58,663 nucleotides of DNA from Patescibacteria group bacterium (GTDB lineage Bacteria; Patescibacteriota; Minisyncoccia; Phycocordibacterales; Phycocordibacteraceae), in assembly GCA_038062735.1 (NCBI GenBank), contig JBBTWN010000002.1, forward strand, positions 1-58,663, in the 5' to 3' direction. Shown in pieces: positions 20,133 through 33,676 of this stretch; position 1 is the stretch's first letter; each line of letters begins with the position of its first letter. The notes under the pieces are model-generated. The model saw nothing but the letters and a program-made list of their open reading frames with translations. It had not been told where the DNA came from and ran no database searches. A program made the translations under genes and the position numbers.

Positions 20133-21794
20133 ATGACGTTTCTCGTTATTTCGTTTATTGCGGGAGTCCTCACGGTTTTGGCGCCGTGTATACTCCCGCT
20201 TCTGCCGGTGGTCATCGGCTCGTCCTTAAGTGGTCGGAGCTGGTGGACGCCGTACATTGTGGTGGGCTCCTTGGCCGCATCGGTCATTGTCTTTACCTTT
20301 GTATTGAAGGTTTCGACCGCGTTTATTACGATACCGCCCGAGGTGTGGTCGTACCTATCAGCTGTCATCGTGATATTTTTTGGCGTCACACTTGCGTTTC
20401 CTGGGCTTTGGGAGCGTATTCCTGGCATGGCTCGACTTTCAACGCGTTCAAACAAACTCGTAGGGAGTGGCTATCAAAAGAAGAGCGTCTGGGGTGACAT
20501 CATCATTGGTGCCGCGCTCGGCCCCGTTTTTTCTACCTGCTCGCCGACCTACTTTGTGATCCTCGCGTCGGTTCTCCCAGCGAGCTTTTTCTTAGGGACG
20601 GCATATCTCCTCGCGTATGTGCTCGGCCTTTCGCTCATGTTACTTTTGATTGCAGTCCTCGGTGAGCGATTTGTCGGTAGGCTTAACATGTTTGCAAATC
20701 CCCACTCGTGGTTTAAGCGGGGACTGGGCGTATTGTTTATTCTCGTGGGGCTTTTCATTGCGTTTGGGTTTGATAAAAAATTGCAGACCGCGATACTCGA
20801 CGCCGGTTTTTTTGATGTGACAAAGATAGAAGAGATGCTTCTTATGGATGACGCAGAGGTGGACACTTTTCGCTATCGAGAAATTGTAAGGCCATCTGGC
20901 TTTGTGAACACGGACGGTGCACCGGTGACGATCGGTCAGTACGTGGGGAACAAGGTGATACTCCTCGACATTATGACCTATAGCTGCATTAACTGTCAGC
21001 GCACCTTTCCGTTCGTGACCAAGTGGTACGAGGAGTACAAGAACGACGGGTTTATCGTCATCGGCATCCATACACCAGAATTTGCATTTGAAAAAGATAT
21101 TGCTAACGTGGCTGCTGCGATGCAAAAGTTTGGTATCACCTACCCCGTAGTGCTTGATAACGACTATGCGACATGGAATGCGTACGGTAATCAGTACTGG
21201 CCGCGAAAATATCTCATCGATATTCACGGCAACGTCGTCTACGACCACATTGGCGAAGGTGGCTACGAGGAGACCGAGAATAAAATAGTAGAACTCTTAA
21301 ACGAGCGCAAGCGTGTACTCAATGAAGAGGGTACGGTCGAAATGGCTGGTTCAGTACCCCTTGAAGCGGTGATGGTCGATTTTGAAAAAGTGCGCACTCG
21401 CGAGACCTACCTTGGCTCGGCGCGAAGCGAGTTTCAAAAAAATGCACCACAGTCGTGTACAAACGGCGTGTGTACCTACCAGTTCACCAAGCAGAGTGAG
21501 TTTCGCGGCTACGAGCTCTCGGGCGCATGGCAGATTTTGCCCGAGTCGGCGCACCTCGCGGGCCCTGGGTCCATTCGCATCAACTTTGAGGCGAGCGTAG
21601 TCAACCTGGTCGCGGGAGCTGACACATCCGTTCGCGCCCGCATTCTCATCGACGACGTCATCCAGGGTGAAATCACTATAGAGGCGCATACGCTCTATAA
21701 GCTCGTCGATCTCAAGGGAGAGTATGGCTCGCATATGCTTGAAATCCAGTTTTTGGACCCAGGCGTTGACGCCTACGCCTTCACGTTCGGTTAA
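20133..21794 (+). CDS. DipZ-like fusion: CcdA/DsbD-type transmembrane reductant transporter + thioredoxin-like (redoxin) domain + C-terminal beta domain
   Basis: CcdA-type N-terminus 'FIAGVLTVLAPCILPLLPVVIG' and a second Cys in 'GPVFSTCSPTY'. Redoxin block 'KVILLDIMTYSCINCQRTFP...VIGIHTPEFAFEKD...YPVVLDNDY..W..Y.NQYWPRKYLID'. Starts 1 nt after the stop of the thioredoxin gene. Confidence 0.75.
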   Translation: MTFLVISFIAGVLTVLAPCILPLLPVVIGSSLSGRSWWTPYIVVGSLAASVIVFTFVLKVSTAFITIPPEVWSYLSAVIVIFFGVTLAFPGLWERIPGMARLSTRSNKLVGSGYQKKSVWGDIIIGAALGPVFSTCSPTYFVILASVLPASFFLGTAYLLAYVLGLSLMLLLIAVLGERFVGRLNMFANPHSWFKRGLGVLFILVGLFIAFGFDKKLQTAILDAGFFDVTKIEEMLLMDDAEVDTFRYREIVRPSGFVNTDGAPVTIGQYVGNKVILLDIMTYSCINCQRTFPFVTKWYEEYKNDGFIVIGIHTPEFAFEKDIANVAAAMQKFGITYPVVLDNDYATWNAYGNQYWPRKYLIDIHGNVVYDHIGEGGYEETENKIVELLNERKRVLNEEGTVEMAGSVPLEAVMVDFEKVRTRETYLGSARSEFQKNAPQSCTNGVCTYQFTKQSEFRGYELSGAWQILPESAHLAGPGSIRINFEASVVNLVAGADTSVRARILIDDVIQGEITIEAHTLYKLVDLKGEYGSHMLEIQFLDPGVDAYAFTFG

Positions 21795-21816
21795 TGTTCT
21801 CGGAGGGGGTTTGCGG

Positions 21817-21822
21817 TATAAT
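21817..21822 (+). promoter_or_regulatory. -10 box TATAAT 6 nt upstream of ATG 21829
   Basis: ggtataat-acctta-ATG read directly. Confidence 0.5.
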
Positions 21823-21828
21823 ACCTTA

Positions 21829-22278
21829 ATGGGTAAATATGCATGGGCATTAATGGGTCTCGGTATTATTCTAATTGGTATAGCATTATTTCTTATTTAT
21901 TCGTCCTTTCAGGCTGTCCAGGAAGGAGTAACATACGAGAACGCAAACGCAGACGATATCACGATTGAACTCCCATTTCCGGGGGCTACCGTTGGACACA
22001 CTTTCAGCGTCTTGGGGGCAGCGCGTGGTCGGTGGTTTACGAACGGTTCGTTCCCGGTCGTGGTGTTAAGCCCTGCGGGGGACGTAGTTGGGGGGAGTGG
22101 CGCAGCAACCAATCCGCCGGGCGGCGACTGGATGACAGACGAATTTGTGAACTACAAAACAACGATTGTCCTGCCCGACACGTTTAAAGGTCCAGCGACG
22201 TTAGTCTTAAAAAAAGATAACCTCTCTGGTCTCGCGAGAAACGACGGTTCTATAAGTATCCAGATCACGGTACAATAA
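21829..22278 (+). CDS. Membrane-anchored Gmad2-type Ig-like domain protein, paralogue 1
   Basis: 'ITIELPFPGATVGHTFSVLGAARGRWFTNGSFPVVVL...DWMTDEFVNYKTTIVLP..FKGPATLVLKKDN' fits the Gmad2 pattern. The start is taken at MGKYAWAL.., not the track's 21724. Confidence 0.6.
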   Translation: MGKYAWALMGLGIILIGIALFLIYSSFQAVQEGVTYENANADDITIELPFPGATVGHTFSVLGAARGRWFTNGSFPVVVLSPAGDVVGGSGAATNPPGGDWMTDEFVNYKTTIVLPDTFKGPATLVLKKDNLSGLARNDGSISIQITVQ

Positions 22279-22285: not shown

Positions 22286-22771
22286 ATGAAAAAAACAATC
22301 TGGCTTGGTATCGGGATACTCGTTGTCGCGGGTCTCGTGTACGCGGTAGTCGCCGTGCCTCAAGCCGAGGCACCAACTGGCGATCTCCCCATCATCGACG
22401 GATCACAGGTCGGTCAGCCTGAGTATGAAAACAGCTCGCCCGACGACATTGTCGTGACGCTCCCATTTCCGGGCGCGGTCACCGGTAAAGATTTTTCTGT
22501 TCGTGGCCGTGCGCGCGGTACGTGGTTTTTTGAGGCCAGCTTTCCCGTGTTCTTGATCGATGAGGAGGGTAACCAACTCGCGGTTGCACTCGCGAGCCCC
22601 GAGCCTCCCGGCACCGAGTGGATGACAAGCGAGTTTATTGGTTTTAAAGCTGATATGGTGGTGCCTGCCGACTTTACGGGTCCTGCGCTACTAATACTCC
22701 AAAACGATAATCCATCAGGCCTGCCGGAAAATCAAAAGACGGTGAGCTTTCCGATAATCATCGAATACTAG
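22286..22771 (+). CDS. Membrane-anchored Gmad2-type Ig-like domain protein, paralogue 2
   Basis: 'IVVTLPFPGAVTGKDFSVRGRARGTWFFEASFPVFLI...EWMTSEFIGFKADMVVP..FTGPALLILQNDN' is collinear with 21829..22278. Confidence 0.6.
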   Translation: MKKTIWLGIGILVVAGLVYAVVAVPQAEAPTGDLPIIDGSQVGQPEYENSSPDDIVVTLPFPGAVTGKDFSVRGRARGTWFFEASFPVFLIDEEGNQLAVALASPEPPGTEWMTSEFIGFKADMVVPADFTGPALLILQNDNPSGLPENQKTVSFPIIIEY

Positions 22772-22772
22772 T

Positions 22773-23027
22773 ATGCTGACGAACGCAGTCCCCCTAGAAC
22801 AGCTTGCAATCTATTTAGGCCTCGATGCCTGGATGGTCGTGGTGCTCATCGTTGTGCTCGCGCTCTGGTCTGTTGTGTGGAAGGGGTGGGCGATGTGGCT
22901 CGCTGCGCGCCGTACTGAAAAAGTGTGGTTTATACTTCTCCTCATCATCAACACCGCCGGCATTCTTGAAATCATCTACATCTTCCTCATCGCTAAACGA
23001 AACGATTTGCAAAAACTGAGTTCGTGA
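22773..23027 (+). CDS. DUF5652-like small membrane protein
   Basis: 'LWSVVWKGWAMWLAARRTEKVWFILLLIINTAGILEIIYIFLI' matches my recollection of the DUF5652 signature (W.A.r...WF...L..NT.GILE..Y). Confidence 0.6.
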   Translation: MLTNAVPLEQLAIYLGLDAWMVVVLIVVLALWSVVWKGWAMWLAARRTEKVWFILLLIINTAGILEIIYIFLIAKRNDLQKLSS

Positions 23028-23028
23028 G

Positions 23029-23139
23029 ATGAAAGGGACACTCACCATTTGTTCGCGTGGCCACAAATTCTTTAAATCAAAGGACCGACCGGTCTGTCCT
23101 CAGTGCTGGCCCGGCCGCTATAAAAAAGCTTCAAAAGCA
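23029..23139 (+). CDS. Small (36 aa) putative zinc-ribbon protein, absent from the ORF track
   Basis: ATG 23029 is 1 nt after the upstream stop, and its TGA overlaps the ATG of the SDR gene (gcATGA). Translation: MKGTLTICSRGHKFFKSKDRPVCPQCWPGRYKKASKA, with a C-x2-H ... C-x2-C arrangement. Confidence 0.4.
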
Positions 23140-23816
23140 TGAATAAAGTAGTGGTGATAACTGGCGGGAGCAAGGGCATAGGTAAGGCGCTCGCGGTAGC
23201 GTTCATTGTAAAAGGCGCACAGGTTGTTATCAGTAGTCGAAGCAAAGTAGAACTCGATGCTGCCGCGAAAGAGATTGGTGCGACGCCATTTGTCGCTGAT
23301 GTGACGAAATCTGGGGACGTCGCCGCGCTCGCCGCTTTTACCGTTAAAACATTTGACCGCATTGATATCTGGATTAACAACGCCGGCGTGTGGATGCCAC
23401 ACTCGCCACTTCAAAATCTCGACCTCGAGCGCGTGCGACAGATGTTCGACATCAATGTGTTTGGCCTCATGTACGGCACCAAAGTCGCGCTCATTGAAAT
23501 GCAAAAACAGGGGAGTGGAACCATAATAAACATCAGTTCAACGAGCGGACTTTCAGGTAAACCAAACTCGTCAGGCTATGCATCGAGTAAGTGGGCAGTT
23601 CGCGGCTTCACCGACTCCATTCGCGAGGAGTGCAAGGGCACAAACATAAAGATCTTAACCGTTTACCCGGGCGGGACAAAGACTAATCTTTTTGACGAGG
23701 CACCGCGCGCAGACTACAAAGATTTTATGACTCCAGAATCTGTCGCTGAAAAAATCGTCATCAACCTCGAGCTCCCCAATCCCGAGCCAGAGCTCATAAT
23801 CAATCGCCCCAAATGA
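23139..23816 (+). CDS. Short-chain dehydrogenase/reductase (classical SDR)
   Basis: 'VVVITGGSKGIGKA' (TGxxxGxG), 'NNAG', catalytic 'SGYASSKWAV' (YxxxK), and 'PGGTKT'. Confidence 0.85.
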   Translation: MNKVVVITGGSKGIGKALAVAFIVKGAQVVISSRSKVELDAAAKEIGATPFVADVTKSGDVAALAAFTVKTFDRIDIWINNAGVWMPHSPLQNLDLERVRQMFDINVFGLMYGTKVALIEMQKQGSGTIINISSTSGLSGKPNSSGYASSKWAVRGFTDSIREECKGTNIKILTVYPGGTKTNLFDEAPRADYKDFMTPESVAEKIVINLELPNPEPELIINRPK

Positions 23817-24184
23817 AAAAAGTACATGGCTCATCAGAGACTTCGACTGCGCCGCTCTCTGCGGCGGTAGAAGCAAATGGTTTAGTCTTTGTGTCAGGCC
23901 AGATACACGCAGACAAAGAGTGGAATCTAGTAGGTACAACCATTGAAGATCGATTTACGGCTGCGATGGCTAGCATCGAACGCATTCTCGCCGAGGCTGG
24001 TTTGTCGCGAGGGGATATAGTCCACGTTCGTCTTTACCTGACTGATCTGTCAGAGCTCCCAGCTTTGAACGACGTATACAAAGCCAGTTTTACCCACCCG
24101 CTCCCAGCGCGCACCGCCGTCGGCGTCGCCCGCCTCCCCTTGGGCGCGAGCTTAGAGATTGAAGTAACCGCCGCCCGCCCATGA
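23813..24184 (+). CDS. RidA/YjgF/TdcF-family (endoribonuclease L-PSP fold) protein
   Basis: 'AVEANGLVFVSGQI........IVHVRLYLTDL.....N.VY...F....PARTAVGVARLPLGASLEIEV' is the typical RidA layout. ATGA overlaps on both sides. Confidence 0.8.
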   Translation: MKKVHGSSETSTAPLSAAVEANGLVFVSGQIHADKEWNLVGTTIEDRFTAAMASIERILAEAGLSRGDIVHVRLYLTDLSELPALNDVYKASFTHPLPARTAVGVARLPLGASLEIEVTAARP

Positions 24185-24600
24185 TCCGCGGTTACACCGA
24201 CGTCGACTATGATCAGGTGAAAGCTCTGTACGAGCAGACGCAGCTGTTCGGCGGGCAGTTTGATGAAAATCGTGACTCCCGCGATAGACTCCGCGTACAG
24301 AGTACGGCTGACGCAGAATCCATTCTTGTCTCAGAAGTCGACAACAAAATCGTCGGCACCATTTCTCTAATTGTCGATCAGCGTGTCGCATGGCTCTTTC
24401 GCTTCGCAGTCGTTCAGGGCGAGCATGAGGCAGAAGTCACTAAAGAGCTCTATGACAGAGCGGTCACAACCCTAAAGGCTCGCGGGCATAACCAAGTTCT
24501 CGTCTATTCGCCAGTAGAGGACCCGCCCCTCGACGCTCGCTACGCCACCCTCGGTTTTTCCAAAGGCACCGATTTTACATGTTTTTGGAGAGATATTTAG
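24181..24600 (+). CDS. GNAT-like N-acetyltransferase (divergent)
   Basis: Size and pattern fit ('IVGTISLIVDQRVAWLFRFAV...ELYDRAVTTLKARGHNQVLVY...YATLGF'), but the Q/RxxGxG/A acetyl-CoA loop is not canonical. Confidence 0.5.
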   Translation: MIRGYTDVDYDQVKALYEQTQLFGGQFDENRDSRDRLRVQSTADAESILVSEVDNKIVGTISLIVDQRVAWLFRFAVVQGEHEAEVTKELYDRAVTTLKARGHNQVLVYSPVEDPPLDARYATLGFSKGTDFTCFWRDI

Positions 24601-24712
24601 TCTCCTAGTTTTTATTTTTAGAAGGAGTAGAATGAGTTCGTACTCGTCATAAACAAGACTTACTGTGGCCTGGACCCGTTTGGACCTTTAAGAAGAGATC
24701 AATCGCACTGCT

Positions 24713-25993
24713 ATGGAAAATGAGATTAAAAAAATTTCCGATTCGCCAGTCTATTTTTTGGGATTGTGCGAAAGGTTTAATGAGCCAACCATAGGAAATG
24801 TTGGCGAGCATAAAATCAAAAGAACTGACTTAATTGGGCTTAGATTTATTTTTCTTTCCTCGATCTTTCCATTTTCTTCAGAGAGCTTTTATCTCACTTT
24901 TTTGCTTGACAACCATTTTGTATCAGACGGGGGCAGTCTCACATTAAAAGTTAGACATCGCGATAGCGGTGAAGAGGTGGGTAGTATTTCGATTACGGCT
25001 CATGTACTAGGTGCAGGAAATAGGCTTGCGTCGCGCTTCACCCTTGGCGCAGCAAAAATTCCTGGGAATTATCCTTTGCCGGGAAGCTACGAAGTCTTTT
25101 TAAAATCCAGTGATAGTGAGGTTGTAGTTGGTGGGTTTGATTTGATTCATATACCCGCACTCCCCCTAACTCCAGAAAGAGTGAAAGCACTCAAGTCAGA
25201 TCCCACAGCAGCAAAATACATTCGTTTCGAACTCACCTGCAATGATTGTCATGATTCAATAAAAGCATGGGTTGGGATAAATGGTAAGGAAGATAACAAG
25301 AATGAGGATGGGTATATTTGGTATGAGGATCTTCCGGAAGACTTCGTTTGTTCTTGCGGGAGGATAAAAAGGAGTTTAAAATATCTCAGAGAAAATCTAC
25401 ACGGGATTCTAGGGCATAAACCATCCCCATTTTCTTCCGAAGAAGAGATCGAAAGAAATTATACAAGTGCAGCATTAAAAACTACGCTTCGTGACTTTGA
25501 GGAGGTAATTGAGCATTCGAAAACCGAGGAGGAGATTCAAAAATTTATTGAACTGCATCCAATAGTGTTAGCGTGCTTTTCGCCAGAATTTCTCAAATTT
25601 AAAGCTCCCGCTACTGCTAAATTTAAAACTGATTTTGCACTTCTAAATCAAAAGGGCGAGCTGGTTTTGATTGAGATCGAGAAAGCGAATACCCCGCTCT
25701 TCACCAAGATGGGCACACAGCACTCAAAACTCACTCAAGCAATTGGTCAGGTAGAGGACTGGCTTAAAGAGGCAAGGAGAAACAAACTTGGCGTTATCGA
25801 TGATTTAGGTATTAATGGGGTGAGCATCGACATGGTGACAGCCGTCAAGGGAGTGGTTATCGCAGGTAGATCCTTGAAAAAATATGACACACACATTGAA
25901 AAACTTCATGCGCGCCAAGATATCAGCTTCTTTACTTTTGACGACCTTTTAAAGTCTTTGAGGAATATCGTTTTAAGAGTTGAAGAAATATAG
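24713..25993 (+). CDS. Shedu-like protein: unrecognised N-terminal region + C-terminal DUF4263 / PD-(D/E)xK nuclease domain
   Basis: C-terminal blocks: 'EEEIQKFIELHPIVLACF', 'KTDFALLNQKGELVLIEIEKANTPLF', 'LTQAIGQVEDWL', 'VVIAGRS', 'ISFFTFDDLL'. A four-Cys cluster CNDC...CSCG sits at about residues 177-216. The gene is visibly AT-richer than its flanks. Confidence 0.6.
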   Translation: MENEIKKISDSPVYFLGLCERFNEPTIGNVGEHKIKRTDLIGLRFIFLSSIFPFSSESFYLTFLLDNHFVSDGGSLTLKVRHRDSGEEVGSISITAHVLGAGNRLASRFTLGAAKIPGNYPLPGSYEVFLKSSDSEVVVGGFDLIHIPALPLTPERVKALKSDPTAAKYIRFELTCNDCHDSIKAWVGINGKEDNKNEDGYIWYEDLPEDFVCSCGRIKRSLKYLRENLHGILGHKPSPFSSEEEIERNYTSAALKTTLRDFEEVIEHSKTEEEIQKFIELHPIVLACFSPEFLKFKAPATAKFKTDFALLNQKGELVLIEIEKANTPLFTKMGTQHSKLTQAIGQVEDWLKEARRNKLGVIDDLGINGVSIDMVTAVKGVVIAGRSLKKYDTHIEKLHARQDISFFTFDDLLKSLRNIVLRVEEI

Positions 25994-26084
25994 TCGTTCA
26001 AAGTAAATCAAATCACCGTGTCGAATGGTAAGCTCAAAACTTGTGACTATCTAACCTGGAAAATTTTAAGATTAAGTAGGCAGA

Positions 26085-26501
26085 TTATTTAGGTTCTAGA
26101 TCACTGTCATTTATCTCGTTGAGTATTTTTTCGAGAGTTTGGTTGTCTCGATAGTAGACATTTATTGACTCTTCAAATAGCCGGTCGATAGCAAAAATCG
26201 AAGTTACAAGTAGGCCAACCACAACTAGGGGATAGATCACTTCATAGCCCTTGAACCAGTCATGAACAATATTTACAAGGAGCCCAATGAGTAGGGCGAT
26301 AACAGCTGCAAGAAAAAAGAGACCAAACTCGAAAGAGCGATTACGCATAGCGCTGACAATAGCCGGAAAGGTGGTGGGCGAATTGTTAAGTGATTTGTTG
26401 GACCAAGCGACCACTTGATCTTGCACTTCAGGAGTGAGATCTATCCACTGCTGTCCATATACTCTTTTAAGTCTCTTTTTTAGTTCGTCGTTATCAGTCA
26501 T
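26085..26501 (-). CDS. Two-TM membrane protein of unknown function, convergent with the Shedu-like gene
   Basis: 'FEFGLFFLAAVIALLIGLLVNIV' and 'IYPLVVVGLLVTSIFAI' helices. Start taken at MTDNDELKK (26501), which has a TAGTGT -10 box 7 nt upstream on the minus strand. The track start 26537 is also possible. Confidence 0.5.
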   Translation of the reverse strand: MTDNDELKKRLKRVYGQQWIDLTPEVQDQVVAWSNKSLNNSPTTFPAIVSAMRNRSFEFGLFFLAAVIALLIGLLVNIVHDWFKGYEVIYPLVVVGLLVTSIFAIDRLFEESINVYYRDNQTLEKILNEINDSDLEPK

Positions 26502-26508
26502 ATACGCC

Positions 26509-26514
26509 ACACTA
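26509..26514 (-). promoter_or_regulatory. -10 box TAGTGT (minus strand) 7 nt upstream of ATG 26501
   Basis: The reverse complement reads tagtgt-ggcgtat-ATG. Confidence 0.4.
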
Positions 26515-26621
26515 CTCCTGCGTGGCAGATAAATCAAATAGCGGCGGTGGGATCGTTAAAGGAATCGAGATCTTAAATAACTATTTTGTGAGGGCTGGAG
26601 TATGGTGTAGGTGGGACTTGC

Positions 26622-26627
26622 TATAAT
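26622..26627 (+). promoter_or_regulatory. -10 box TATAAT (TGc-extended) 6 nt upstream of ATG 26634
   Basis: tgctataat-tacaat-ATG read directly. Confidence 0.55.
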
Positions 26628-26633
26628 TACAAT

Positions 26634-27170
26634 ATGAAAAAAGGTTTGGTATGGGTGGGGGTTGGAGTTGTGGTGGTGGCGCTTGGAGTGGCGGCGGCGT
26701 TGTATGCTGAGCAGCATCCTGCTGGGCCGCTCACGGGGTATACGAGGGATTCAAACTATGAATATACGCTCGGCGTAGCGACAGGCATTGCAGGTTCGTC
26801 ATACACCATCCCCGCAGCTTTAGCTGAAGGTACAAACTTGAGTACGGACACCTATATAAGCTACGAGGAGCTGCCGAGCCCAGTCACATGCGATCCGACT
26901 GAGTTTCTAGATGGTGAGCCGGAGGTGACAGGGGTTGTCGATGGCGGCACCATGTATCTTGTCGCACACTCGGTGGGTGCGGGGGCCGGGAATAGGTATG
27001 AGGAGACAGTTTATGTGTTTAAAGACTATACGCCATGCACCGCTATCCGCTACTTCATCCACTATGGCGTTATCGAGAACTATCCAGAAGGAACAGTCAC
27101 AGAGTTCGACCACGCGACGCTCGTCGCACAGTTTGACGACATCCGTCGCCTCCTCGCCCGTAGCCGCTAA
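26634..27170 (+). CDS. Membrane-anchored extracytoplasmic protein of unknown function
   Basis: Anchor 'LVWVGVGVVVVALGVAAALY' followed by a 150-aa soluble domain. I recognise no family. Confidence 0.5.
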   Translation: MKKGLVWVGVGVVVVALGVAAALYAEQHPAGPLTGYTRDSNYEYTLGVATGIAGSSYTIPAALAEGTNLSTDTYISYEELPSPVTCDPTEFLDGEPEVTGVVDGGTMYLVAHSVGAGAGNRYEETVYVFKDYTPCTAIRYFIHYGVIENYPEGTVTEFDHATLVAQFDDIRRLLARSR

Positions 27171-27207
27171 TTTCCTTATAGGCTAATTCGCCCGAATATG
27201 TCCTATA
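27171..27207 (+). repeat. Palindromic intergenic box, copy A (core TTATAGGCTAATTCGCCCGAATATGTCCTATA at 27176-27207)
   Basis: Starts 1 nt after the stop at 27170. Identical over 37 nt to copy B. Inverted arms TATAGG/CCTATA and ATTCG/CGAAT around a CC centre. Confidence 0.9.
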
Positions 27208-27301
27208 TGCAGAAAATCGCAGGCTCGATTCGCGTCCAGACGTCCAGAATGGTTGGTATAATTACAGAAAGGAGGAATTAACTCCTAAATAACTATTTTA
27301 T

Positions 27302-27685
27302 ATGGACGTAACAATGTTTTTGGCGCAAATTTGGGGTCCGATTATGCTCGCCGTCGGCCTTGGTATTTTTTCAAGTCGTAAGCACTATGTGCACGTGTAC
27401 AAAGATTTAGATAAAGAGACGTTTGCAGTATTCACGTTCGCCATGATGGCGATCACGATTGGTATACTCCACATCAATATTCACAATGTCTGGAATACCT
27501 TGCCGCAGATAGTGGTGAGTATCCTCGGTTGGGGACTTTTGGTTAAGGGTGCAATGTTTGCTATCGCCCCGCACTATGCTGACAAGTGGGGTAACTGGGC
27601 AGCAGACTCAAAGTTCATCTCTATCGTCGGCGCAGCACTCTTGGTCATCGGCCTCTACCTCTCGTGGCTCGGCTACCTTGGCTAA
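27302..27685 (+). CDS. Four-TM membrane protein of unknown function
   Basis: Helices IWGPIMLAVGLGIFS, FAVFTFAMMAITIGILHI, IVVSILGWGLLVKGAMFAI, IVGAALLVIGLYLSWLGY. Upstream there is an extended -10 tggtataat and an AGGAGG that lies in a small hairpin (aggag-gaattaa-ctcct). Confidence 0.55.
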   Translation: MDVTMFLAQIWGPIMLAVGLGIFSSRKHYVHVYKDLDKETFAVFTFAMMAITIGILHINIHNVWNTLPQIVVSILGWGLLVKGAMFAIAPHYADKWGNWAADSKFISIVGAALLVIGLYLSWLGYLG

Positions 27686-27688
27686 ACA

Positions 27689-27985
27689 ATGTTTGAGGAC
27701 CACATCGCGTACCTAAAAGATAATCCAAAAGGATACTGGTTCAAGGCGCGTCTGTACGGCTGGGGTTGGGTGCCGGTTAGGTGGCAGGGCTGGGCGGTTA
27801 TTGGTGCATACGTTGTGCTTATGATTCTGCTCGGGCTCACCATCGACGAGGCATCGCCGCCGCGCGAGATCGCGTTCACTTTTTTCATCCCCGCAGCTAT
27901 TTTGACTGCGCTCCTCCTTCGCATCTGCTACAAAAAAGGCGAGCGACCCCACTGGCAGTGGGGCCCACCCAAATCCAAAAAATAA
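27689..27985 (+). CDS. Small two-TM membrane protein of unknown function
   Basis: 'YWFKARLYGWGWVPVRWQGWAVIGAYVVLMILLGL' and 'IAFTFFIPAAILTALLLRI'. Starts 3 nt after the previous stop. Confidence 0.5.
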   Translation: MFEDHIAYLKDNPKGYWFKARLYGWGWVPVRWQGWAVIGAYVVLMILLGLTIDEASPPREIAFTFFIPAAILTALLLRICYKKGERPHWQWGPPKSKK

Positions 27986-27996
27986 TCGCGCCCCAC

Positions 27997-28033
27997 TTTC
28001 CTTATAGGCTAATTCGCCCGAATATGTCCTATA
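27997..28033 (+). repeat. Palindromic intergenic box, copy B (core 28002-28033)
   Basis: Begins 12 nt after the stop at 27985. The 37 nt tttccttataggctaattcgcccgaatatgtcctata are identical to copy A. Confidence 0.9.
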
Positions 28034-28067
28034 GTCGGCGGACGCTTTTCTCGTATAAGCTGGAAGA

Positions 28068-28466
28068 GTGTTTACATTTATTGTCAGACGCAGAAAGGTA
28101 CGCCGGCGGCGCAAGGTGAGTGTAGCCAAGCGCAAGCACTATGTGTTGAATAAAGAAGTTGCGCGACGCGCTATTGTTGCACGCGTCGCCGAGCTTAATC
28201 AGCACTACAACTTTACGCATGGACGGATTTCAATACGTTCTCAGCGTTCGCGCTGGGGCAGCTGCTCTAAGAAGGGGAACTTGAATTTTAATTATATGAT
28301 CGCATCTCTTCCGCCCGCACTCATGGACTATGTGATTGTGCACGAGATGTGCCACCTTTCCGTCTTTAATCACTCACCATCCTTTTGGGCTAGGGTCGCG
28401 GAGCTCGTTTCAAACCACCGCGCGCTCCGTGCATCGCTGCGCACCCACGGCCACCTCATCCGCTAA
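28068..28466 (+). CDS. DUF45 / YgjP-like (M48-related) zinc metallopeptidase, short form lacking the usual N-terminal half
   Basis: 'RISIRSQRSRWGSCSKKGNLNFNYMIASLPPALMDYVIVHEMCHLSVFNHSPSFW' shows the WGSC and HExxH hallmarks of DUF45. GTG start. Basic N-terminus RRRKVRRRRKV. Confidence 0.75.
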   Translation: MFTFIVRRRKVRRRRKVSVAKRKHYVLNKEVARRAIVARVAELNQHYNFTHGRISIRSQRSRWGSCSKKGNLNFNYMIASLPPALMDYVIVHEMCHLSVFNHSPSFWARVAELVSNHRALRASLRTHGHLIR

Positions 28467-28476
28467 TCCACCCTAC

Positions 28477-28511
28477 TCCTTGTAGGCTAATTCGCCCGAA
28501 CATGTCCTGTA
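28477..28511 (+). repeat. Palindromic intergenic box, copy C (variant; core 28480-28511)
   Basis: TTGTAGGCTAATTCGCCCGAACATGTCCTGTA has three substitutions relative to A/B/D. It lies 10 nt after the stop at 28466 and directly upstream of, and in frame with, the ArsR ORF. Confidence 0.85.
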
Positions 28512-28549
28512 TGGTGGCAAAGTGTCGACCGCTGTGGTTAGATGTGGTC

Positions 28550-28819
28550 ATGGCAAAAGACAAGGATATCGAGCGAGTGTTAAAAGCTTTGGCGAATAAA
28601 AGGAGATTAATGATTGTCCGACTCCTCAAAAAGCATAAAATGATGAACGTGGGGGATATTGCCACAGAAATAAATCTTTCATTCCGCGCGACATCGCGAC
28701 ACCTCGGCGTCCTTCTTTCAGCGGGCATTTTGGAACGCGAGCAGCAAAGTCTTAACATGTTTTACCGCATACACGCGGGGCTACCTGAGATAGCTGGACG
28801 AATAATCTCCGCTCTTTAA
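28550..28819 (+). CDS. ArsR/SmtB-family winged-helix transcriptional regulator
   Basis: 'VLKALANKRRLMIVRLLKKHKMMNVGDIATEINLSFRATSRHLGVLLSAGILEREQQSLNMFYRI' is the canonical ArsR HTH_5/HTH_20 pattern. I see no obvious metal-site Cys (alpha3 CxC) or alpha5 His/Asp cluster. Start ATG 28550 preferred; the track's ATG 28502 lies inside box C. Confidence 0.75.
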   Translation: MAKDKDIERVLKALANKRRLMIVRLLKKHKMMNVGDIATEINLSFRATSRHLGVLLSAGILEREQQSLNMFYRIHAGLPEIAGRIISAL

Positions 28820-28821
28820 TT

Positions 28822-28855
28822 TGTTATAGGCTAATTCGCCCGAATATGTCCTATA
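28822..28855 (+). repeat. Palindromic intergenic box, copy D (core 28824-28855)
   Basis: Begins 3 nt after the ArsR stop at 28819. The core is identical to copies A and B. Confidence 0.9.
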
Positions 28856-29089
28856 GTGTGGGTTCATCCATATTTCACCCTGCATTGGGTATGGTTAAGG
28901 GCCTTAACAGTCGTTAACCAAACCCACCATGCATGCAAAAAAAGACAAAGATCATAGCAAAGAAGGCAATGATCAAGGTAGCAAAGGTGATTCGCCAGTT
29001 CAAAGTCCGTATCCTGACGAGCGGGAGGAAAGCTGGGCCGCGTGAAGAGCGTGAGGTCGGCGTGTAATGAATAATGAGCGTCGCTGTAG

Positions 29090-29095
29090 TATGAT
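29090..29095 (+). promoter_or_regulatory. -10 box TATGAT 6 nt upstream of ATG 29102
   Basis: gtagtatgat-ggtggc-ATG read directly. Confidence 0.45.
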
Positions 29096-29101
29096 GGTGG
29101 C

Positions 29102-29548
29102 ATGATAAAAAATCTCATCATTGCAGTCGTTGGACTCCTGATACTCGGCGGTGTGTTTGTCTATATTGTGCCCATGCTCGACGATGAGTCAGCACAGGTC
29201 GCGTGCACACAAGAGGCGATGCTCTGTCTTGATGGAAGTTATGTCGGCCGCACTGGCCCAAGCTGCGAGTTTGCTGCGTGCCCTGCGCTACCGCCTGCCG
29301 TCTATTCGTGCGACAACGACAAATCTGTCACCGTGACCTTTGCAAGTGAAACTGCAATGGTAGAACTTTCTGACGGCCGCACAATGTTGCTAACACTCAA
29401 AGAAGCCGCCTCAGGTGCAAAGTATACAAACTCTGATGAGTCATTCGTCTTTTGGACGCAGGACTATGGTGCCTTTATAGAAGAAAATGGTGTCACCACT
29501 TTCGCTGCGTGCCACATAGATGACCTCACATTTCCAGAAGTGAACTAG
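29102..29548 (+). CDS. Membrane-anchored protein with a Cys-rich mini-domain and an MliC-like (C-type lysozyme inhibitor) domain
   Basis: 'VYSCDNDKSVTVTFASETAMVELSDGRTMLLTLKEAASGAKYTNSDESFVFWTQDYGAFIEENG' fits the MliC pattern (Y.C....v.v.f...a.l.......L....SGakY......fw.kg..a). It is preceded by 'CTQEAMLCLDGSYVGRTGPSCEFAACP'. Confidence 0.55.
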   Translation: MIKNLIIAVVGLLILGGVFVYIVPMLDDESAQVACTQEAMLCLDGSYVGRTGPSCEFAACPALPPAVYSCDNDKSVTVTFASETAMVELSDGRTMLLTLKEAASGAKYTNSDESFVFWTQDYGAFIEENGVTTFAACHIDDLTFPEVN

Positions 29549-29556
29549 GAGTTGTT

Positions 29557-29585
29557 TTGACTAAGAGATAATTTTGTGTTATTGT
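29557..29585 (+). promoter_or_regulatory. Sigma-70-type promoter TTGACT-N17-TATTGT, 7 nt upstream of GTG 29593
   Basis: ttgact-aagagataattttgtgt-tattgt-ttcaagc-GTG read directly. Confidence 0.55.
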
Positions 29586-29592
29586 TTCAAGC

Positions 29593-30138
29593 GTGGAAAA
29601 ACGTCTTTCTCCTCATGCGCATCGAGAATCTGACATACACGAACATGTACAGCGCCTCGCGTTAGATGCGCTACATGACACTGTCGAAACATCCTCGACA
29701 TCTGTAGTGATGGCGACCAATAGAAAGCCGCACATTTTGACGCGCAAAAATATGATGCGCCCGATTATGTCTGACCCGCGTCGTCGCACCAAAGAAATGC
29801 TTTTGTACGAGCTCTTAGGTATCCGCGCCTTTAAAATTCTGTGGGAACTCTGGATGCGCGGTACGACATGGATCTTCAGGCAGGACAAAACCAAAATAAA
29901 ATTCTTACGTCGTGATGCGGACGAAAATTATCCCTATGCCATGTTCAGCTACATGGCCTTCATAATTCATTTTTTTAGCTTTGCAGGTATTGCAGTAATA
30001 ACCCCGTTTATGGGGCCGTGGTTCTGGCCTATGTTTGCTTTGAACATCCTTATGAATGTCTATCCGTGCATGCTCCAGCGCTACAACTGGCTGCGCCTCA
30101 AGCGTGCAAAGTTGAATCCGGATCTCTCAATAAGTTAG
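29593..30138 (+). CDS. Membrane protein with a CrtO-like (glycosyl-4,4'-diaponeurosporenoate acyltransferase family) C-terminal region
   Basis: 'FIIHFFSFAGIAVITPFMGPWFWPMFALNILMNVYPCMLQRYNWLRLKR' resembles the 'N.P.I.VQRYNRPRL' end of staphylococcal CrtO, as far as I recall that sequence. Confidence 0.4.
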   Translation: MEKRLSPHAHRESDIHEHVQRLALDALHDTVETSSTSVVMATNRKPHILTRKNMMRPIMSDPRRRTKEMLLYELLGIRAFKILWELWMRGTTWIFRQDKTKIKFLRRDADENYPYAMFSYMAFIIHFFSFAGIAVITPFMGPWFWPMFALNILMNVYPCMLQRYNWLRLKRAKLNPDLSIS

Positions 30139-30141
30139 TGC

Positions 30142-30147
30142 TAGTGT
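30142..30147 (+). promoter_or_regulatory. -10 box TAGTGT (TGc-extended) 6 nt upstream of ATG 30154
   Basis: tgctagtgt-gagcgt-ATG read directly. Confidence 0.5.
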
Positions 30148-30153
30148 GAGCGT

Positions 30154-31413
30154 ATGAGAGATGCAGATTTGTACGATGTGGCCGTTTTGGGCGGTGGAGC
30201 GTCGGGCATGTTTGCAGCTTGTATTGCTGCATCACGCGGTGCACGCGTGGTCGTCATCGATAAAAATAAGTCGCTCGGCGAGAAGCTCGCGATCACCGGT
30301 GGAGGCCGCTGTAATATCACGAACGCCGAGTATGACATCCATGCACTCCTAAAAAACTATGGCGCTGACGCCAAGTTTTTATATTCCCCCTTCTCGCAGT
30401 TTGGCGTTGAGGACACGTTTAAGTACTTTTCTGCGCGCGGGCTGCCACTCGTTATAGAGGCGAGAGGCCGCGCCTTTCCCGAGACACAAAAAGCGACCGA
30501 TGTAGTCAAAGTATTAGAAAAAGAACTTAAAAAACACAAAGTCAGCGTTGTTCGAGCCACTGTTAAACGAATTGTCAGTGATAGCGGTTTCATCGAGCGA
30601 GTTGAAACGACTGGCGGAGACATCCGTGCGCGTGCCTATATCCTCGCGACGGGTGGCGCGTCACACAAGGAGACCGGCTCCACCGGCGATGGCTTTACAT
30701 TTTTGAAAAGCATCGGACACACGGTGAAAGATCCAACACCGACCATCGTGCCACTTTCTGTCCGCGACCGGTGGATTAAGATACTCGCTGGCGTGTCGCT
30801 TAAGAAAGTCTCGATAACCTTTTTTCTCGACGACAAAAAACAGTTTTCAAAAACGGGGGATATGTTGTGTACTCACTTTGGCTTGTCTGGCCCTACGATA
30901 TTAAATAGTGCAAGCGCGGTGAGTCATTTATTAGAAGGCGGTGGCGCGGTGACGGCACGCATCGATGCGCACCCTACGCTTGACCTCGGCGCGCTTGAAA
31001 AGAAGGTGATCGCCGTCTTTGATGCAAACAAAAACAAAACGCTAAAGACGGTATTTAAAGAATTGTGTCCGGTGGGGAGCGCAAAAGGCGTCCAGACACT
31101 GCTCACGAACATTAATTTTGAAACAAAAGTGCACAGCGTGAGCAAGGATGACAGAAAAAAGATAGTGCGGCTGTTAAAAGCGCTCCCCGTTTCAATCCTT
31201 GGGCTCATGGGCTATGATCGCGCAGTCGTTGCAGATGGCGGCGTGCCCCTTTCTGAGATTGATACACGCACGATGCGCTCTTTGAAGTACGATAATTTAT
31301 TTGTGACAGGCGACTTGCTCCACATTAACCGGCCGTCCGGCGGCTACTCGCTCCAACTCTGTTGGACGACGGGGTTTGTGGCCGGCACTGCCGCGTCACT
31401 TATCAAGGCGTAG
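30154..31413 (+). CDS. HI0933/BaiN-like NAD(P)/FAD-dependent oxidoreductase
   Basis: 'YDVAVLGGGASGMFAA' dinucleotide-binding motif, 'ITGGGRCNITN', 'ILATGG.S...TGSTGDGF', and C-terminal 'LFVTGDLLHINRPSGGYSLQLCWTTG'. Confidence 0.85.
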   Translation: MRDADLYDVAVLGGGASGMFAACIAASRGARVVVIDKNKSLGEKLAITGGGRCNITNAEYDIHALLKNYGADAKFLYSPFSQFGVEDTFKYFSARGLPLVIEARGRAFPETQKATDVVKVLEKELKKHKVSVVRATVKRIVSDSGFIERVETTGGDIRARAYILATGGASHKETGSTGDGFTFLKSIGHTVKDPTPTIVPLSVRDRWIKILAGVSLKKVSITFFLDDKKQFSKTGDMLCTHFGLSGPTILNSASAVSHLLEGGGAVTARIDAHPTLDLGALEKKVIAVFDANKNKTLKTVFKELCPVGSAKGVQTLLTNINFETKVHSVSKDDRKKIVRLLKALPVSILGLMGYDRAVVADGGVPLSEIDTRTMRSLKYDNLFVTGDLLHINRPSGGYSLQLCWTTGFVAGTAASLIKA

Positions 31414-32865: not shown

Positions 32866-32890
32866 AGTGTCAAGCGTACCGTATGTGCGC

Positions 32891-32896
32891 TAAAAT
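32891..32896 (+). promoter_or_regulatory. -10 box TAAAAT 6 nt upstream of ATG 32903
   Basis: gcgctaaaat-agatag-ATG read directly. Confidence 0.45.
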
Positions 32897-32902
32897 AGAT
32901 AG

Positions 32903-33676
32903 ATGCAGTTTGACTACAAAGAGATTCACAAGCGACTCACTACGGCGACCGCCGTTTTTTCTGATTCGTCTTCAACGATAGATAGGGCACGCGCTGCAGT
33001 ATCACTTCTCGTGGGTATTAGTCCACGCACTGATGCACTGTGTACTGAATGTCTACGACATCTCGACACCATCGGTCACATCGAGCGTGGTGAGCTCACC
33101 GAGATTGGGGTGCACGCGCTTTCAGAAGAAACTGAGGACCAAAAGCGGCGGAAAAAAGCACTGCTTCTTCTCCTTAAGGGCTGGAAAGACTTGCAGGCAG
33201 AAGTAGCACGGGTACAGCAGGAATTTCAGAACCAAAAACAAGGCGGGAGTCATAGCTCTATGTGGGGGAGGATATTCAGCGCTGCAAAAGGCCCTCTGGC
33301 ACTCATCACTATCGTTGCGGTTGGTATTGCCGCGATGAGTGCGACCTCTGTCGATGTCGTTATCGAAAACGAAGGATGTGGCACATTTGTTTCAAACACC
33401 TCGGTCCCGATATCGATGCCTGGTCTCGTCATACCGTCGGACCCTATAGAGTCTGGTGGCTCTGCGGTCGCGACGATTCCACCGCTCACGCTCACCATTG
33501 ACGGATCAAATCCAAATGAATTAAAAATTTCTTCGCTCAAAGTATCTTTTTCTATACAACTATCGTCTGCAGTGAGTGACGTTCGTGTTGATGGTGCATC
33601 AGTGGTAGGTCAGGTGCGTGAACTAAAACTTTCAGACGCAGATATACACACCGTGCGCGTTGTCTGCGGAGTTTGA
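32903..33676 (+). CDS. Hypothetical single-pass membrane protein
   Basis: The cytoplasmic N-terminal half carries a Cys pair (CTECLRHLDTIGH). One TM (GPLALITIVAVGIAAMSA). The C-terminal external domain matches no family I recognise. Confidence 0.45.
   Translation: MQFDYKEIHKRLTTATAVFSDSSSTIDRARAAVSLLVGISPRTDALCTECLRHLDTIGHIERGELTEIGVHALSEETEDQKRRKKALLLLLKGWKDLQAEVARVQQEFQNQKQGGSHSSMWGRIFSAAKGPLALITIVAVGIAAMSATSVDVVIENEGCGTFVSNTSVPISMPGLVIPSDPIESGGSAVATIPPLTLTIDGSNPNELKISSLKVSFSIQLSSAVSDVRVDGASVVGQVRELKLSDADIHTVRVVCGV

What the first reader, a model, noticed from the sequence alone, without database searches (positions are those of the whole stretch)
24601..26620. AT-rich insert carrying a Shedu-like (DUF4263 / PD-(D/E)xK) nuclease with an unassignable N-terminal region
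Base composition drops visibly between the GNAT gene (ends 24600) and the native-looking leaderless gene at 26634. There are long A/T runs and the proteins are rich in K, N, I and F. The TAnnnT-N6-ATG promoter geometry that dominates elsewhere is missing in front of 24713.

The 426-aa product ends with these blocks: 'EEEIQKFIELHPIVLACF', 'KTDFALLNQKGELVLIEIEKANTPLF', 'LTQAIGQVEDWL', 'VVIAGRS', 'ISFFTFDDLL'. As far as I recall, this is the order of conserved elements in the SduA (Shedu) C-terminal nuclease: an acidic residue, then a hydrophobic strand ending E-x-K, a Q-helix, 'vIiGR', and a terminal 'TyDdLL'.

The first ~270 aa match nothing I can name. They contain a four-Cys cluster (CNDC...CSCG) that could be a zinc ribbon. 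A convergent two-TM protein gene (26085..26501) lies in the same insert.

Shedu itself is already described. What is new here is a divergent N-terminal sensor region, a possible membrane partner, and the presence of a dedicated immune nuclease in what looks like a minimal, symbiont-type genome.
Basis: partly seen in the sequence, partly recalled or inferred. Interest (0 to 1): 0.7.

Follow-up and report, generated by a model that had tools for sequence, protein, structure and literature searches.

The report
Acquired Shedu defence nuclease, variant type
A 2-kb low-GC insert in a groundwater Patescibacteria genome carries one gene of the known Shedu anti-phage nuclease family, from a widespread but unstudied subtype that has its own sensor domain and a glutamate where the catalytic lysine normally sits.

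Summary
Window 24571-26650 is the lowest-GC stretch of the 58.7 kb (40.4% against 50.4%). It contains a 426-aa ORF (24713-25993) and a convergent two-TM ORF (26085-26501).

The Shedu call is correct. Pfam SduA_C scores 72.5 bits (cut-off 27), 14 PADLOC SduA models match, and Foldseek matches the B. cereus and E. coli SduA structures.

- **N-terminal region.** It is not peculiar to this genome. A DUF6941-like beta-sandwich plus Cys4 zinc ribbon is fused to the nuclease in at least 500 protein clusters, in many bacterial phyla and one archaeon. It has so far been seen only with this nuclease.
- **Membrane partner.** The two-TM ORF has no homologue among 5.8 billion proteins and is absent from 32 other loci. 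No gene family recurs next to this Shedu type.
- **Defence in a reduced genome.** Dense defence systems in groundwater CPR bacteria are already published.

One point is new: motif III reads E-x-E-(K/R), not E-x-K. The lysine essential in E. coli SduA is glutamate in 73 of 74 relatives, as in BamHI.

Relatives that share the flanking backbone lack the block, so horizontal acquisition is supported. I read it as a functional single-gene defence nuclease of an uncharacterised Shedu subtype. Interest is modest.

The parts
24571..26650 (.). Low-GC segment (40.4% GC) that carries the Shedu gene and the two-TM ORF. It lies between the GNAT gene and the leaderless p178 gene.
   Evidence: Maximum-likelihood segment. 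Lowest 2-kb GC window of the 58.7 kb. DNA homology to relative L039 starts exactly at 26634.
24601..24712 (+). 112-nt spacer upstream of the Shedu gene. It has no TAnnnT-N6-ATG box and no Shine-Dalgarno motif at normal spacing. Read-through from the SDR-RidA-GNAT operon is possible but is an inference.
24713..25993 (+). sduA-type gene, 426 aa plus stop codon.
   Evidence: ORF. Pfam PF14082 E=5.7e-20. 14 PADLOC SduA models. AF2 pLDDT 91.7.
24749..25150 (+). N-terminal beta-sandwich, aa 13-146. It is DUF6941-like and resembles Ig-like and Wzt carbohydrate-binding folds.
   Evidence: AF2. Foldseek gives only generic beta-sandwich hits with E about 1e-3. DUF6941 matches 9 of 74 homologues; P0031 scores 30 bits against GA 27.
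25163..25417 (+). Cys4 zinc-ribbon-like subdomain, aa 151-235. It contains the near-invariant PLTPER..A..K.DP motif, cysteines C176, C179, C213 and C215, and conserved basic residues R156, K161, K168, R171, K192 and R226.
   Evidence: Invariant columns. Secondary structure. Conserved basic residues. Weak CXXC_Zn-b_euk and Rubredoxin hits.
25436..25516 (+). Long alpha-helical linker, aa 242-268, between the sensor module and the nuclease. E. coli SduA has the same arrangement.
   Evidence: AF2 helix 242-268. E. coli SduA architecture per 10.1101/2023.08.10.552762.
25520..25987 (+). SduA_C (DUF4263) nuclease domain, aa 270-425. Motif I is E272 (with Q276), motif II is D307, motif III is E321-x-E323, and motif IV is Q346. 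The VVIAGR and TFDDLL blocks follow.
25673..25684 (+). Motif III codons GAG ATC GAG AAA, encoding E321 I322 E323 K324. E323 occupies the position of the catalytic lysine of E. coli SduA (K285) and B. cereus SduA (K266).
   Evidence: Sequence. Profile alignments to 8ps4 and 8ti8. E323 is glutamate in 73 of 74 relatives. About 180 of 186 scorable family members read ExE.
26085..26501 (-). Convergent 138-aa ORF with two predicted TM helices. It has no homologue, shares the low GC, and shows no evidence of being part of the system.
   Evidence: The only family signal is a sub-threshold SLATT_1 hit, 13.5 bits against a cut-off of 41.
26622..26636 (+). TATAAT box, 6-nt spacer and ATG of the native leaderless gene p178. 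This marks the right edge of the variable DNA.

Best explanation
The block is horizontally acquired DNA that carries a single-gene Shedu-type immune nuclease (type I of Loeff et al., Type 1 of Gu et al.). The protein has three parts: a sensor and regulatory module (a DUF6941-like beta-sandwich plus a Cys4 zinc ribbon), a long helical linker, and a C-terminal DUF4263 PD-(D/E)xK-fold nuclease.

By analogy with the two solved Shedu enzymes, I infer the following mechanism. The nuclease domains build a homotetramer. The N-terminal modules keep it inactive on host DNA. When they recognise an invader-specific nucleic-acid feature, the invading DNA is nicked or cleaved in a metal-dependent reaction. 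The conserved basic residues around the zinc ribbon make a nucleic-acid signal the best guess.

The catalytic centre is a variant: E272/Q276, D307, E321-x-E323 and Q346. A glutamate replaces the canonical lysine, as in BamHI (D94/E111/E113).

**Shown here:** family membership of the nuclease domain, the domain architecture, conservation of the residues, patchy multi-phylum distribution, absence of a conserved partner, and atypical composition with non-syntenic placement.

**Inferred:** oligomeric state, autoinhibition by the N-terminal module, the identity of the trigger, catalytic competence of the ExE centre, and anti-phage function in this host.
For: **Nuclease identity**
- Pfam SduA_C 72.5 bits against GA 27; 14 PADLOC SduA models, best E=3.7e-15.
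- Foldseek hits 8ti9_C (B. cereus Shedu nuclease, TM 0.72 over the target, probability 1.0) and 8ps5_A (E. coli SduA).
- Profile alignments to 8ps4 and 8ti8 map E272, Q276, D307, E321 and Q346 onto the residues those papers showed to be essential. These residues are invariant or nearly so in 74 homologues.

**Architecture**
- The AF2 model has pLDDT 91.7 and shows sandwich, zinc ribbon, linker helix and nuclease in that order.
- The N-terminal module occurs only fused to this nuclease. Of 230 family proteins, 212 have both parts, and the other 18 are truncated fragments.

**Single-gene system**
- No recurrent neighbour family in 32 loci. Some loci sit beside CBASS, type IIG restriction-modification or DISARM genes.

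**Acquisition**
- The segment has 40.4% GC, and the gene is below its flanks in GC in all 12 loci checked.
- Relatives L040 and L041 keep the backbone from the sigma factor gene to Gmad2 and from aldolase to ribonucleotide reductase, but lack the block.
- Homology to L039 starts at the p178 ATG.
- The same architecture occurs in more than 12 phyla.

**Stability**
- The gene is identical in the six contigs on record for this population, from at least five samples.
Against: - The canonical motif III lysine is missing. K285A abolishes E. coli SduA activity, so activity of the ExE centre rests on the BamHI precedent and on conservation, not on data for this protein.
- The N-terminal module resembles neither solved Shedu N-terminal domain, so the trigger is unknown.
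- No promoter-like or ribosome-binding signal was found in front of 24713, and expression is unverified.
- No other defence genes, integrase, tRNA or flanking repeats mark the insert.
- An exact empty site was not found.
- No member of this subfamily has been tested experimentally, as far as the searchable literature shows.
Confidence: 0.75

Rival explanations
1. This is a two-gene system. The convergent two-TM protein (26085-26501) is a membrane effector or partner of the nuclease, in the manner of an abortive-infection system.
For: The ORF shares the low GC of the Shedu gene and lies 91 bp away in the same insert. It has two TM helices. There is a faint SLATT_1 hit at 13.5 bits against a cut-off of 41. 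Two-component Shedu systems exist, for example KELShedu (PMC12577705).
Against: The ORF has no homologue among 5.8 billion proteins other than itself. It is absent within 6-10 kb of 32 other loci of this Shedu type, and no neighbour family recurs there. Its orientation is convergent, so it is not in an operon with the nuclease. PADLOC finds nothing.
Confidence: 0.05
2. The Lys-to-Glu change has made the domain catalytically dead. The protein is then a DNA-binding or regulatory factor, or a decaying remnant, and not an active nuclease.
For: E323 replaces the lysine whose mutation abolishes E. coli SduA activity.
Against: All four metal and catalytic acidic or polar residues are invariant, and E323 itself is conserved in 73 of 74 relatives and about 180 of 186. 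That pattern indicates selection on an active centre. D...ExE is a working centre in BamHI (established knowledge; not tested here). The ORF is intact and identical across samples.
Confidence: 0.1
3. This is a housekeeping repair or recombination nuclease of the NucS/EndoMS or RecB kind that belongs to the host core genome.
For: Foldseek also hits EndoMS/NucS (5gke, 2vld) and nicking endonucleases. UvrA, UvrB and SMC genes lie in the same window.
Against: The distribution is patchy across unrelated phyla. The gene is absent from syntenic relatives. Its GC is atypical here and in the other hosts checked. The best matches are Shedu models and Shedu structures.
Confidence: 0.05
4. This is the selfish cargo of a small mobile element, for example a nuclease that serves element maintenance or exclusion, with no benefit to the host.
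For: The insert is low in GC and lies in a flexible region. One close homologue (L001) lies near resolvase genes. Shedu genes are often linked to transposons and prophages (Gu et al.).
Against: There is no integrase, transposase, tRNA or terminal repeat here. No relative was found in IMG/VR, PLSDB or INPHARED. The block is fixed and identical in the population.
Confidence: 0.05

Closest known systems
E. coli SduA (Shedu, PDB 8PS4/8PS5; Loeff et al., 10.1101/2023.08.10.552762)
   Same: Both have an N-terminal domain, a long helical linker and a C-terminal DUF4263 nuclease. E226/Q230/D269/E283/Q314 correspond to E272/Q276/D307/E321/Q346. The IIVGRD and LTYDDLL blocks align, and both are single-gene systems.
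   Different: The E. coli N-terminal domain, an end-binding clamp, has no detectable similarity to the sandwich plus zinc-ribbon module. The E. coli catalytic K285 is E323 here. Similarity is too low for a single-sequence search to detect (phmmer finds nothing at E<=10).
B. cereus B4264 SduA (PDB 8TI8/8TI9; Gu et al., 10.1101/2023.08.10.552793)
   Same: This is the best structural match of the nuclease domain (TM 0.72 over 8ti9_C). Motifs I-IV are in the same order. [quoted passage not shown]
   Different: The B. cereus N-terminal domain has an sPC4/Whirly-type fold (Type 1A). Here it is a beta-sandwich plus Cys4 ribbon. B. cereus K266 is E323 here.
Catalogue of Shedu N-terminal domains by Gu et al. 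(79 families, classes 1A-1G and 1X)
   Same: The principle is the same: a common DUF4263 core fused to diverse N-terminal sensor domains. The catalogue includes zinc-finger (1G) and unclassified (1X) types.
   Different: I could not map this module to any of their clusters because Supplemental Table S3 is not held. The module does not fit the descriptions of sPC4/Whirly, NRF1 or NRF2.
Pfam DUF6941 (PF22091)
   Same: The beta-sandwich of 9 of 74 relatives matches this family, one of them above the gathering score.
   Different: The window protein itself does not reach the model. The family has no known function and no paper mentions it.
BamHI-type PD-(D/E)xK active site (D94/E111/E113; established knowledge)
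   Same: The third catalytic position is glutamate instead of lysine: D...E-x-E.
   Different: This is a different family and fold elaboration. The resemblance concerns the motif only and was not tested structurally here.

Membership tests
Shedu (SduA) | DUF4263 / SduA_C domain above the curated threshold | tested here: met
   PF14082 scores 72.5 bits against a cut-off of 27, covering aa 270-413 and profile positions 2-159 of 159. All 74 relatives also match.
Shedu (SduA) | Recognised by defence-system HMMs (PADLOC SduA) | tested here: met
   14 SduA models match, best E=3.7e-15. Every match covers only aa ~220-423.
Shedu (SduA) | Nuclease fold matches solved Shedu structures | tested here: met
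   Foldseek: 8ti9_C E=6.4e-7, TM 0.72 over the target; 8ps5_A E=6.4e-7. The model has pLDDT 91.7.
Shedu (SduA) | Motif I (E), motif II (D), motif III (E) and motif IV (Q) present | tested here: met
   E272, D307, E321 and Q346 are invariant in 74 sequences, and Q276 is nearly so. They align to the E. coli and B. cereus catalytic residues.
Shedu (SduA) | Motif III lysine (E-x-K; E. coli K285, B. cereus K266) | tested here: not met
   The aligned residue is E323, which is glutamate in 73 of 74 relatives. K/R324 follows but is not invariant.
Shedu (SduA) | Type I architecture: N-terminal regulatory domain, helical linker, C-terminal nuclease | tested here: met
   AF2 domain order; compared with the published description.
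Shedu (SduA) | N-terminal domain homologous to a characterised Shedu N-terminal domain (E. coli clamp or sPC4/Whirly) | tested here: not met
   A Foldseek search with the N-terminal model alone returns only generic beta-sandwiches. PADLOC and Pfam Shedu models do not cover aa 1-220.
Shedu (SduA) | Single-gene system without an obligatory partner | tested here: met
   No recurrent neighbour family in 32 loci. The two-TM ORF has no homologue.
Shedu (SduA) | Homotetramer assembled through DUF4263 | not testable with these tools
   Only monomer prediction was available.
Shedu (SduA) | Protects against phage or foreign DNA; nuclease-dependent | not testable with these tools
   This needs an experiment. 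No member of this subfamily has been reported as tested.
Horizontally acquired island or insert | Atypical composition relative to the host | tested here: met
   40.4% against 50.4% GC; lowest 2-kb window of the 58.7 kb.
Horizontally acquired island or insert | Absent from relatives that share the flanking synteny | tested here: met
   L040 and L041 share the backbone but lack the block. L039 homology starts at 26634.
Horizontally acquired island or insert | Exact empty site, or mobility genes or repeats at the borders | tested here: not met
   No GNAT-p178 junction was found. There is no integrase, tRNA or significant flanking repeat.

The most novel reading that the evidence does not exclude
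The DUF6941-sandwich plus zinc-ribbon Shedu clade may be a mechanistically distinct class of Shedu. Its sensor, whose nearest folds are carbohydrate-binding and Ig-like sandwiches, would recognise something other than free DNA ends or single-stranded DNA, for example sugar-modified phage DNA or a phage protein. Its BamHI-like D/E-x-E centre would give a different cleavage chemistry or metal dependence from the characterised E-x-K Shedu enzymes.
Probability: 0.15. Interest if true: 0.55.

Novelty: new variant of a known kind. Interest (0 to 1): 0.33.

Why it matters
For the window, the result is mostly a clean annotation: a Shedu gene picked up by a groundwater Patescibacteria population. This fits published reports that CPR bacteria carry dense and rapidly exchanged defence repertoires.

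The more useful product concerns the subfamily, which is large (at least 500 clusters at 50% identity, in many phyla) and entirely uncharacterised. It has three consistent features:
- a two-part sensor (DUF6941-like sandwich plus invariant Cys4 ribbon) that is never seen apart from the nuclease;
- a conserved PLTPER...K.DP junction motif;
- systematic replacement of the catalytic lysine by glutamate.

This gives experimenters a defined target for asking how different Shedu sensors gate the common nuclease. It also corrects the mutagenesis design: mutate D307, E321 and E323, not K324.

Tried and rejected
- **Membrane partner.** tblastn of the 138-aa ORF against 32 other loci of this Shedu type, a search of 5.8 billion proteins, PADLOC, Pfam, NCBIfam and PHROGs, and a comparison with a similarly built two-TM ORF in L039 all found nothing significant.
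- **Conserved neighbour of any kind.** All-against-all clustering of flanking ORFs and family counts on 146 neighbours showed only scattered, non-recurrent defence genes.
- **Direct sequence match to solved structures.** phmmer found nothing. A family profile was needed.
- **TALE-repeat hits of the family profile.** These come from summing a short LTPExVxAIxS resemblance over many repeats. No single stretch is significant and the predicted structure differs.
- **N-terminal fold identification.** Foldseek against PDB and BFVD gave only generic beta-sandwiches with E about 1e-3.
- **Mapping the N-terminal domain to the N1-N59 clusters of Gu et al.** The supplement is not held.
- **Phage or plasmid origin.** No relatives in IMG/VR, PLSDB or INPHARED.
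- **Mobility signatures.** No tRNA, no Rfam family, and no meaningful flanking repeats.
- **Empty-site search.** I looked for the exact GNAT protein and for GNAT relatives in JGI metagenomes. The insert is fixed in this population, and more distant GNAT genes lie in unrelated contexts.
- **Literature on DUF6941 or Shedu with a zinc ribbon.** None found.
Full report
**1. What is in the sequence**

The window holds a 426-aa ORF at 24713..25993 (+) and a convergent ORF at 26085..26501 (-). The second ORF is 138 aa from its ATG, or 150 aa from an upstream TTG.

The interval 24601-26620 has 40.9% GC against 50.4% for the rest of the window. It is the lowest of all 2,020-bp windows, about 4 SD below the mean. 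GC3 is 0.38 for the Shedu gene and 0.40 for the two-TM ORF, against 0.52 +/- 0.07 for other genes. Four other small ORFs in the window are equally low.

The claimed leaderless promoter geometry is real. TAnnnT ends exactly 6 nt before the ATG at 15 of 56 crude genes, against 1-3 at any other spacing, and Shine-Dalgarno-like motifs are rare. The geometry is present at 26634 (TATAAT at 26622-26627) and absent at 24713. The upstream neighbour is a GNAT.

**2. Source and host**

The exact protein occurs on NCBI assembly GCA_964357475.1 (contig CAYHLL010000005.1, 72.6 kb). It also occurs on short contigs from Hainich well H41 groundwater, 0.1-um filter fraction. The downstream gene p178 belongs to a family whose named members are all Patescibacteria: Taylorbacteria, Paceibacterota and Minisyncoccota. 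The window also carries UvrA, UvrB, SMC, RNase II-type, aldolase and ribonucleotide reductase genes, so it is chromosomal. The reading "CPR-type genome" is therefore a reasonable inference.

**3. The C-terminal domain is a Shedu nuclease with a variant motif III**

- Pfam SduA_C matches aa 270-413 over the whole profile at 72.5 bits, against a cut-off of 27.
- Fourteen PADLOC SduA models match the C-terminal part.
- An AlphaFold2 model built on 74 homologues has mean pLDDT 91.7. Foldseek finds the B. cereus Shedu nuclease (8ti9_C, TM 0.72 over the target) and E. coli SduA (8ps5_A) as top hits, followed by nicking endonucleases and NucS/EndoMS.
- Family profiles align to the sequences of 8ps4 and 8ti8.

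Using the residue numbers given in the two papers, the mapping is as follows:

| Window residue | E. coli SduA | B. cereus SduA |
|---|---|---|
| E272 | E226 | E204 (by motif order only; neither profile alignment reaches it) |
| Q276 | Q230 | not given |
| D307 | D269 | D249 |
| E321 | E283 | E264 |
| E323 | K285 | K266 |
| Q346 | Q314 | Q295 |

E272, D307, E321 and Q346 are invariant, and Q276 is nearly so.

The canonical lysine is the exception. E. coli K285 and B. cereus K266 align with E323, which is glutamate in 73 of 74 homologues.

From established knowledge of the PD-(D/E)xK superfamily, a glutamate at this position is a working alternative: BamHI uses D94/E111/E113. Together with the strict conservation, this makes me consider the centre active. 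That conclusion is inferred, not shown.

**4. The N-terminal 240 residues**

The model shows four parts:
- a beta-sandwich at aa 13-146;
- a subdomain at aa 151-235 built around C176, C179, C213 and C215. The first three are invariant, and C215 is cysteine in 73 of 74 homologues;
- a long helix at aa 242-268;
- the nuclease domain.

No Pfam, NCBIfam, PADLOC or PHROGs model reaches the window protein's N-terminus. However, nine of the 74 homologues match Pfam DUF6941 over the sandwich, one of them above the gathering score. The sandwich is therefore a divergent DUF6941 domain. That family has no known function and no literature.

Foldseek with the N-terminal model alone finds only generic sandwiches at E about 1e-3: the Wzt carbohydrate-binding domain, PA1606, RhoGDI and an uncharacterised phage protein. 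Neither solved Shedu N-terminal domain appears. Conserved basic residues cluster in the ribbon subdomain at R156, K161, K168, R171, K192 and R226. This is weak support for nucleic-acid binding.

**5. The architecture is widespread, not new to this genome**

A search of 5.8 billion proteins returns 90 relatives, most of them full-length (420-440 aa, more than 95% coverage). They range from 77% down to about 30% identity.

Species-representative genomes carrying the architecture include Kaiserbacteria (48%), Peribacteria, Peregrinibacteria, Acidobacteriota, Desulfobacterales, Gammaproteobacteria, Chlorobium, a clostridial Gudongella, Myxococcota, Verrucomicrobiota, a cyanobacterium, Omnitrophota and a Thermoplasmatota archaeon. 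NCBI already names some of these proteins [quoted passage not shown].

A profile of the N-terminal module alone, searched against 1.84 billion cluster representatives, finds 502 clusters, 267 of them at E<=1e-30. Of the 230 family proteins in hand, 212 carry both modules. The 18 with only the N-terminal part are all short fragments that end with the module. The sensor module is therefore known only in fusion with this nuclease.

Gu et al. catalogued 79 N-terminal domain families in 7,687 Shedu proteins, including zinc-finger and unclassified classes. This module fits none of the folds they describe in text (sPC4/Whirly, NRF1, NRF2). Their table is not available to me, so I cannot say whether they listed it.

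**6. No partner**

The two-TM ORF has two clear hydrophobic segments but no homologue other than itself among 5.8 billion proteins. It is absent from the flanks of 32 other loci of this Shedu type.

Clustering of all flanking ORFs, and Pfam and PADLOC counts on 146 neighbours, show no recurrent family. Only occasional unrelated defence genes appear: a CBASS cyclase with a 2TM effector, a type IIG restriction-modification enzyme and DrmMI. A 13.5-bit SLATT_1 hit is far below its cut-off of 41. The ORF is probably a real orphan gene co-resident in the insert. Nothing ties it to Shedu.

**7. Acquired DNA**

Two relatives, L040 and L041, have p178 at 64-69% identity. They conserve the backbone from the sigma-70 gene through DEAD helicase, HTH, thioredoxin and DsbD/AhpC to Gmad2, and from aldolase to ribonucleotide reductase. 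They lack SDR, RidA, GNAT, Shedu and the two-TM ORF. The segment between Gmad2 and aldolase, about 11 kb in the window, is a flexible region.

In the closest relative, L039 (p127 at 91% identity), nucleotide homology begins exactly at the p178 start codon, and other small genes lie upstream. GNAT relatives in 15 other metagenomic loci are never next to Shedu or p178.

The Shedu gene is lower in GC than its flanks in all 12 homologous loci checked, by up to 20 points. Its closest homologues sit in unrelated contexts.

Within this population the insert is fixed. All six contigs that carry the exact GNAT protein continue into Shedu.

Three things were not found:
- an exact empty site;
- an integrase, tRNA or meaningful border repeat;
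- any relative in viral or plasmid collections.

The route of entry is therefore unknown.

**8. Mechanism**

*Shown:* a Shedu-fold nuclease with an intact, variant catalytic centre, fused through a helical linker to a conserved two-part N-terminal module. It is a single-gene unit that moves between lineages.

*Inferred from the two solved systems:* tetramerisation through the nuclease domain, autoinhibition by the N-terminal and linker regions, activation on recognition of an invader feature, and metal-dependent nicking or cleavage of foreign DNA.

The trigger is unknown. A nucleic-acid feature is the best guess given the zinc ribbon and basic residues. The carbohydrate-binding-like sandwich leaves room for recognition of modified DNA or of a protein.

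Confidence that this is a functional defence nuclease of the Shedu kind is about 0.75.

**9. Novelty and score**

The Shedu identification is routine: standard HMMs find it and relatives are already annotated. Defence systems in groundwater CPR bacteria are documented as dense and diverse (PMC12259885). The "new sensor" and "membrane partner" claims fall.

What remains is an uncharacterised, widespread Shedu subtype with a DUF6941-like sandwich plus zinc-ribbon sensor and an E-x-E catalytic motif. I file it as a new variant of a known kind, with interest 0.33.

Noticed in passing
window 25163-25204 (aa 151-164): The near-invariant motif PLTPERxxAxKSDP makes the family profile hit TALE-repeat proteins in the PDB (9jo8, Hax3), because it resembles the TALE repeat start LTPEQVVAIAS. 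Each repeat contributes only 1-4 bits and the predicted structure differs, so this is probably chance.
   Followed up: partly
window-wide; examples at 26622-26636, 9115, 15064, 47401: A leaderless-type geometry dominates first genes of operons. TAnnnT lies exactly 6 nt before the ATG at 15 of 56 crude genes, and Shine-Dalgarno-like motifs occur at only 6 of 56.
   Followed up: partly
window 22771-33690: The roughly 11 kb between Gmad2 and the aldolase gene is a flexible region. Relatives L040 and L041 keep the flanking backbone but carry different genes there; in L041 Gmad2 and aldolase are separated by a single ORF.
   Followed up: partly
window 26634-27170 and 29102-29548: p178 corresponds to the N-terminal half of ~300-aa Patescibacteria proteins that are fused to an MliC (lysozyme inhibitor) domain. 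In this genome a separate MliC gene lies 2 kb downstream.
   Followed up: no
window 21739-22278 and 22286-22771: Two adjacent genes, x179 and the Gmad2-like gene, are paralogues. Both hit the same single gene in the relatives.
   Followed up: no
window 26571-26587 / 27283-27299 and 26618-26631 / 27253-27266: Two short boxes recur upstream of p178 and p127: TCYTAAATAACTATTTT and TTGSTATAATTACA. They look like a shared promoter or operator arrangement.
   Followed up: no
window 40791-41189, 41246-41638, 53181-53660, 53670-54158: Four small ORFs have GC3 as low as the Shedu gene (0.36-0.38) and no Pfam match. They may be further acquired or orphan genes.
   Followed up: no
window 26085-26501 (-): The orphan two-TM protein gives a sub-threshold NCBIfam SLATT_1 hit (13.5 bits against a cut-off of 41). 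SLATT is a 2TM effector domain of defence systems. TM composition alone could explain the hit.
   Followed up: partly
P0017 (571 aa, JGI): One homologue carries a low-molecular-weight phosphatase (LMWPc) domain in front of the full Shedu architecture. This is either a real fusion or a merged gene call.
   Followed up: no
L001 1-2396: The 65%-identical homologue (GCA_024449705.1) lies about 8 kb from two resolvase/recombinase genes. This hints at a mobile context in that genome.
   Followed up: no
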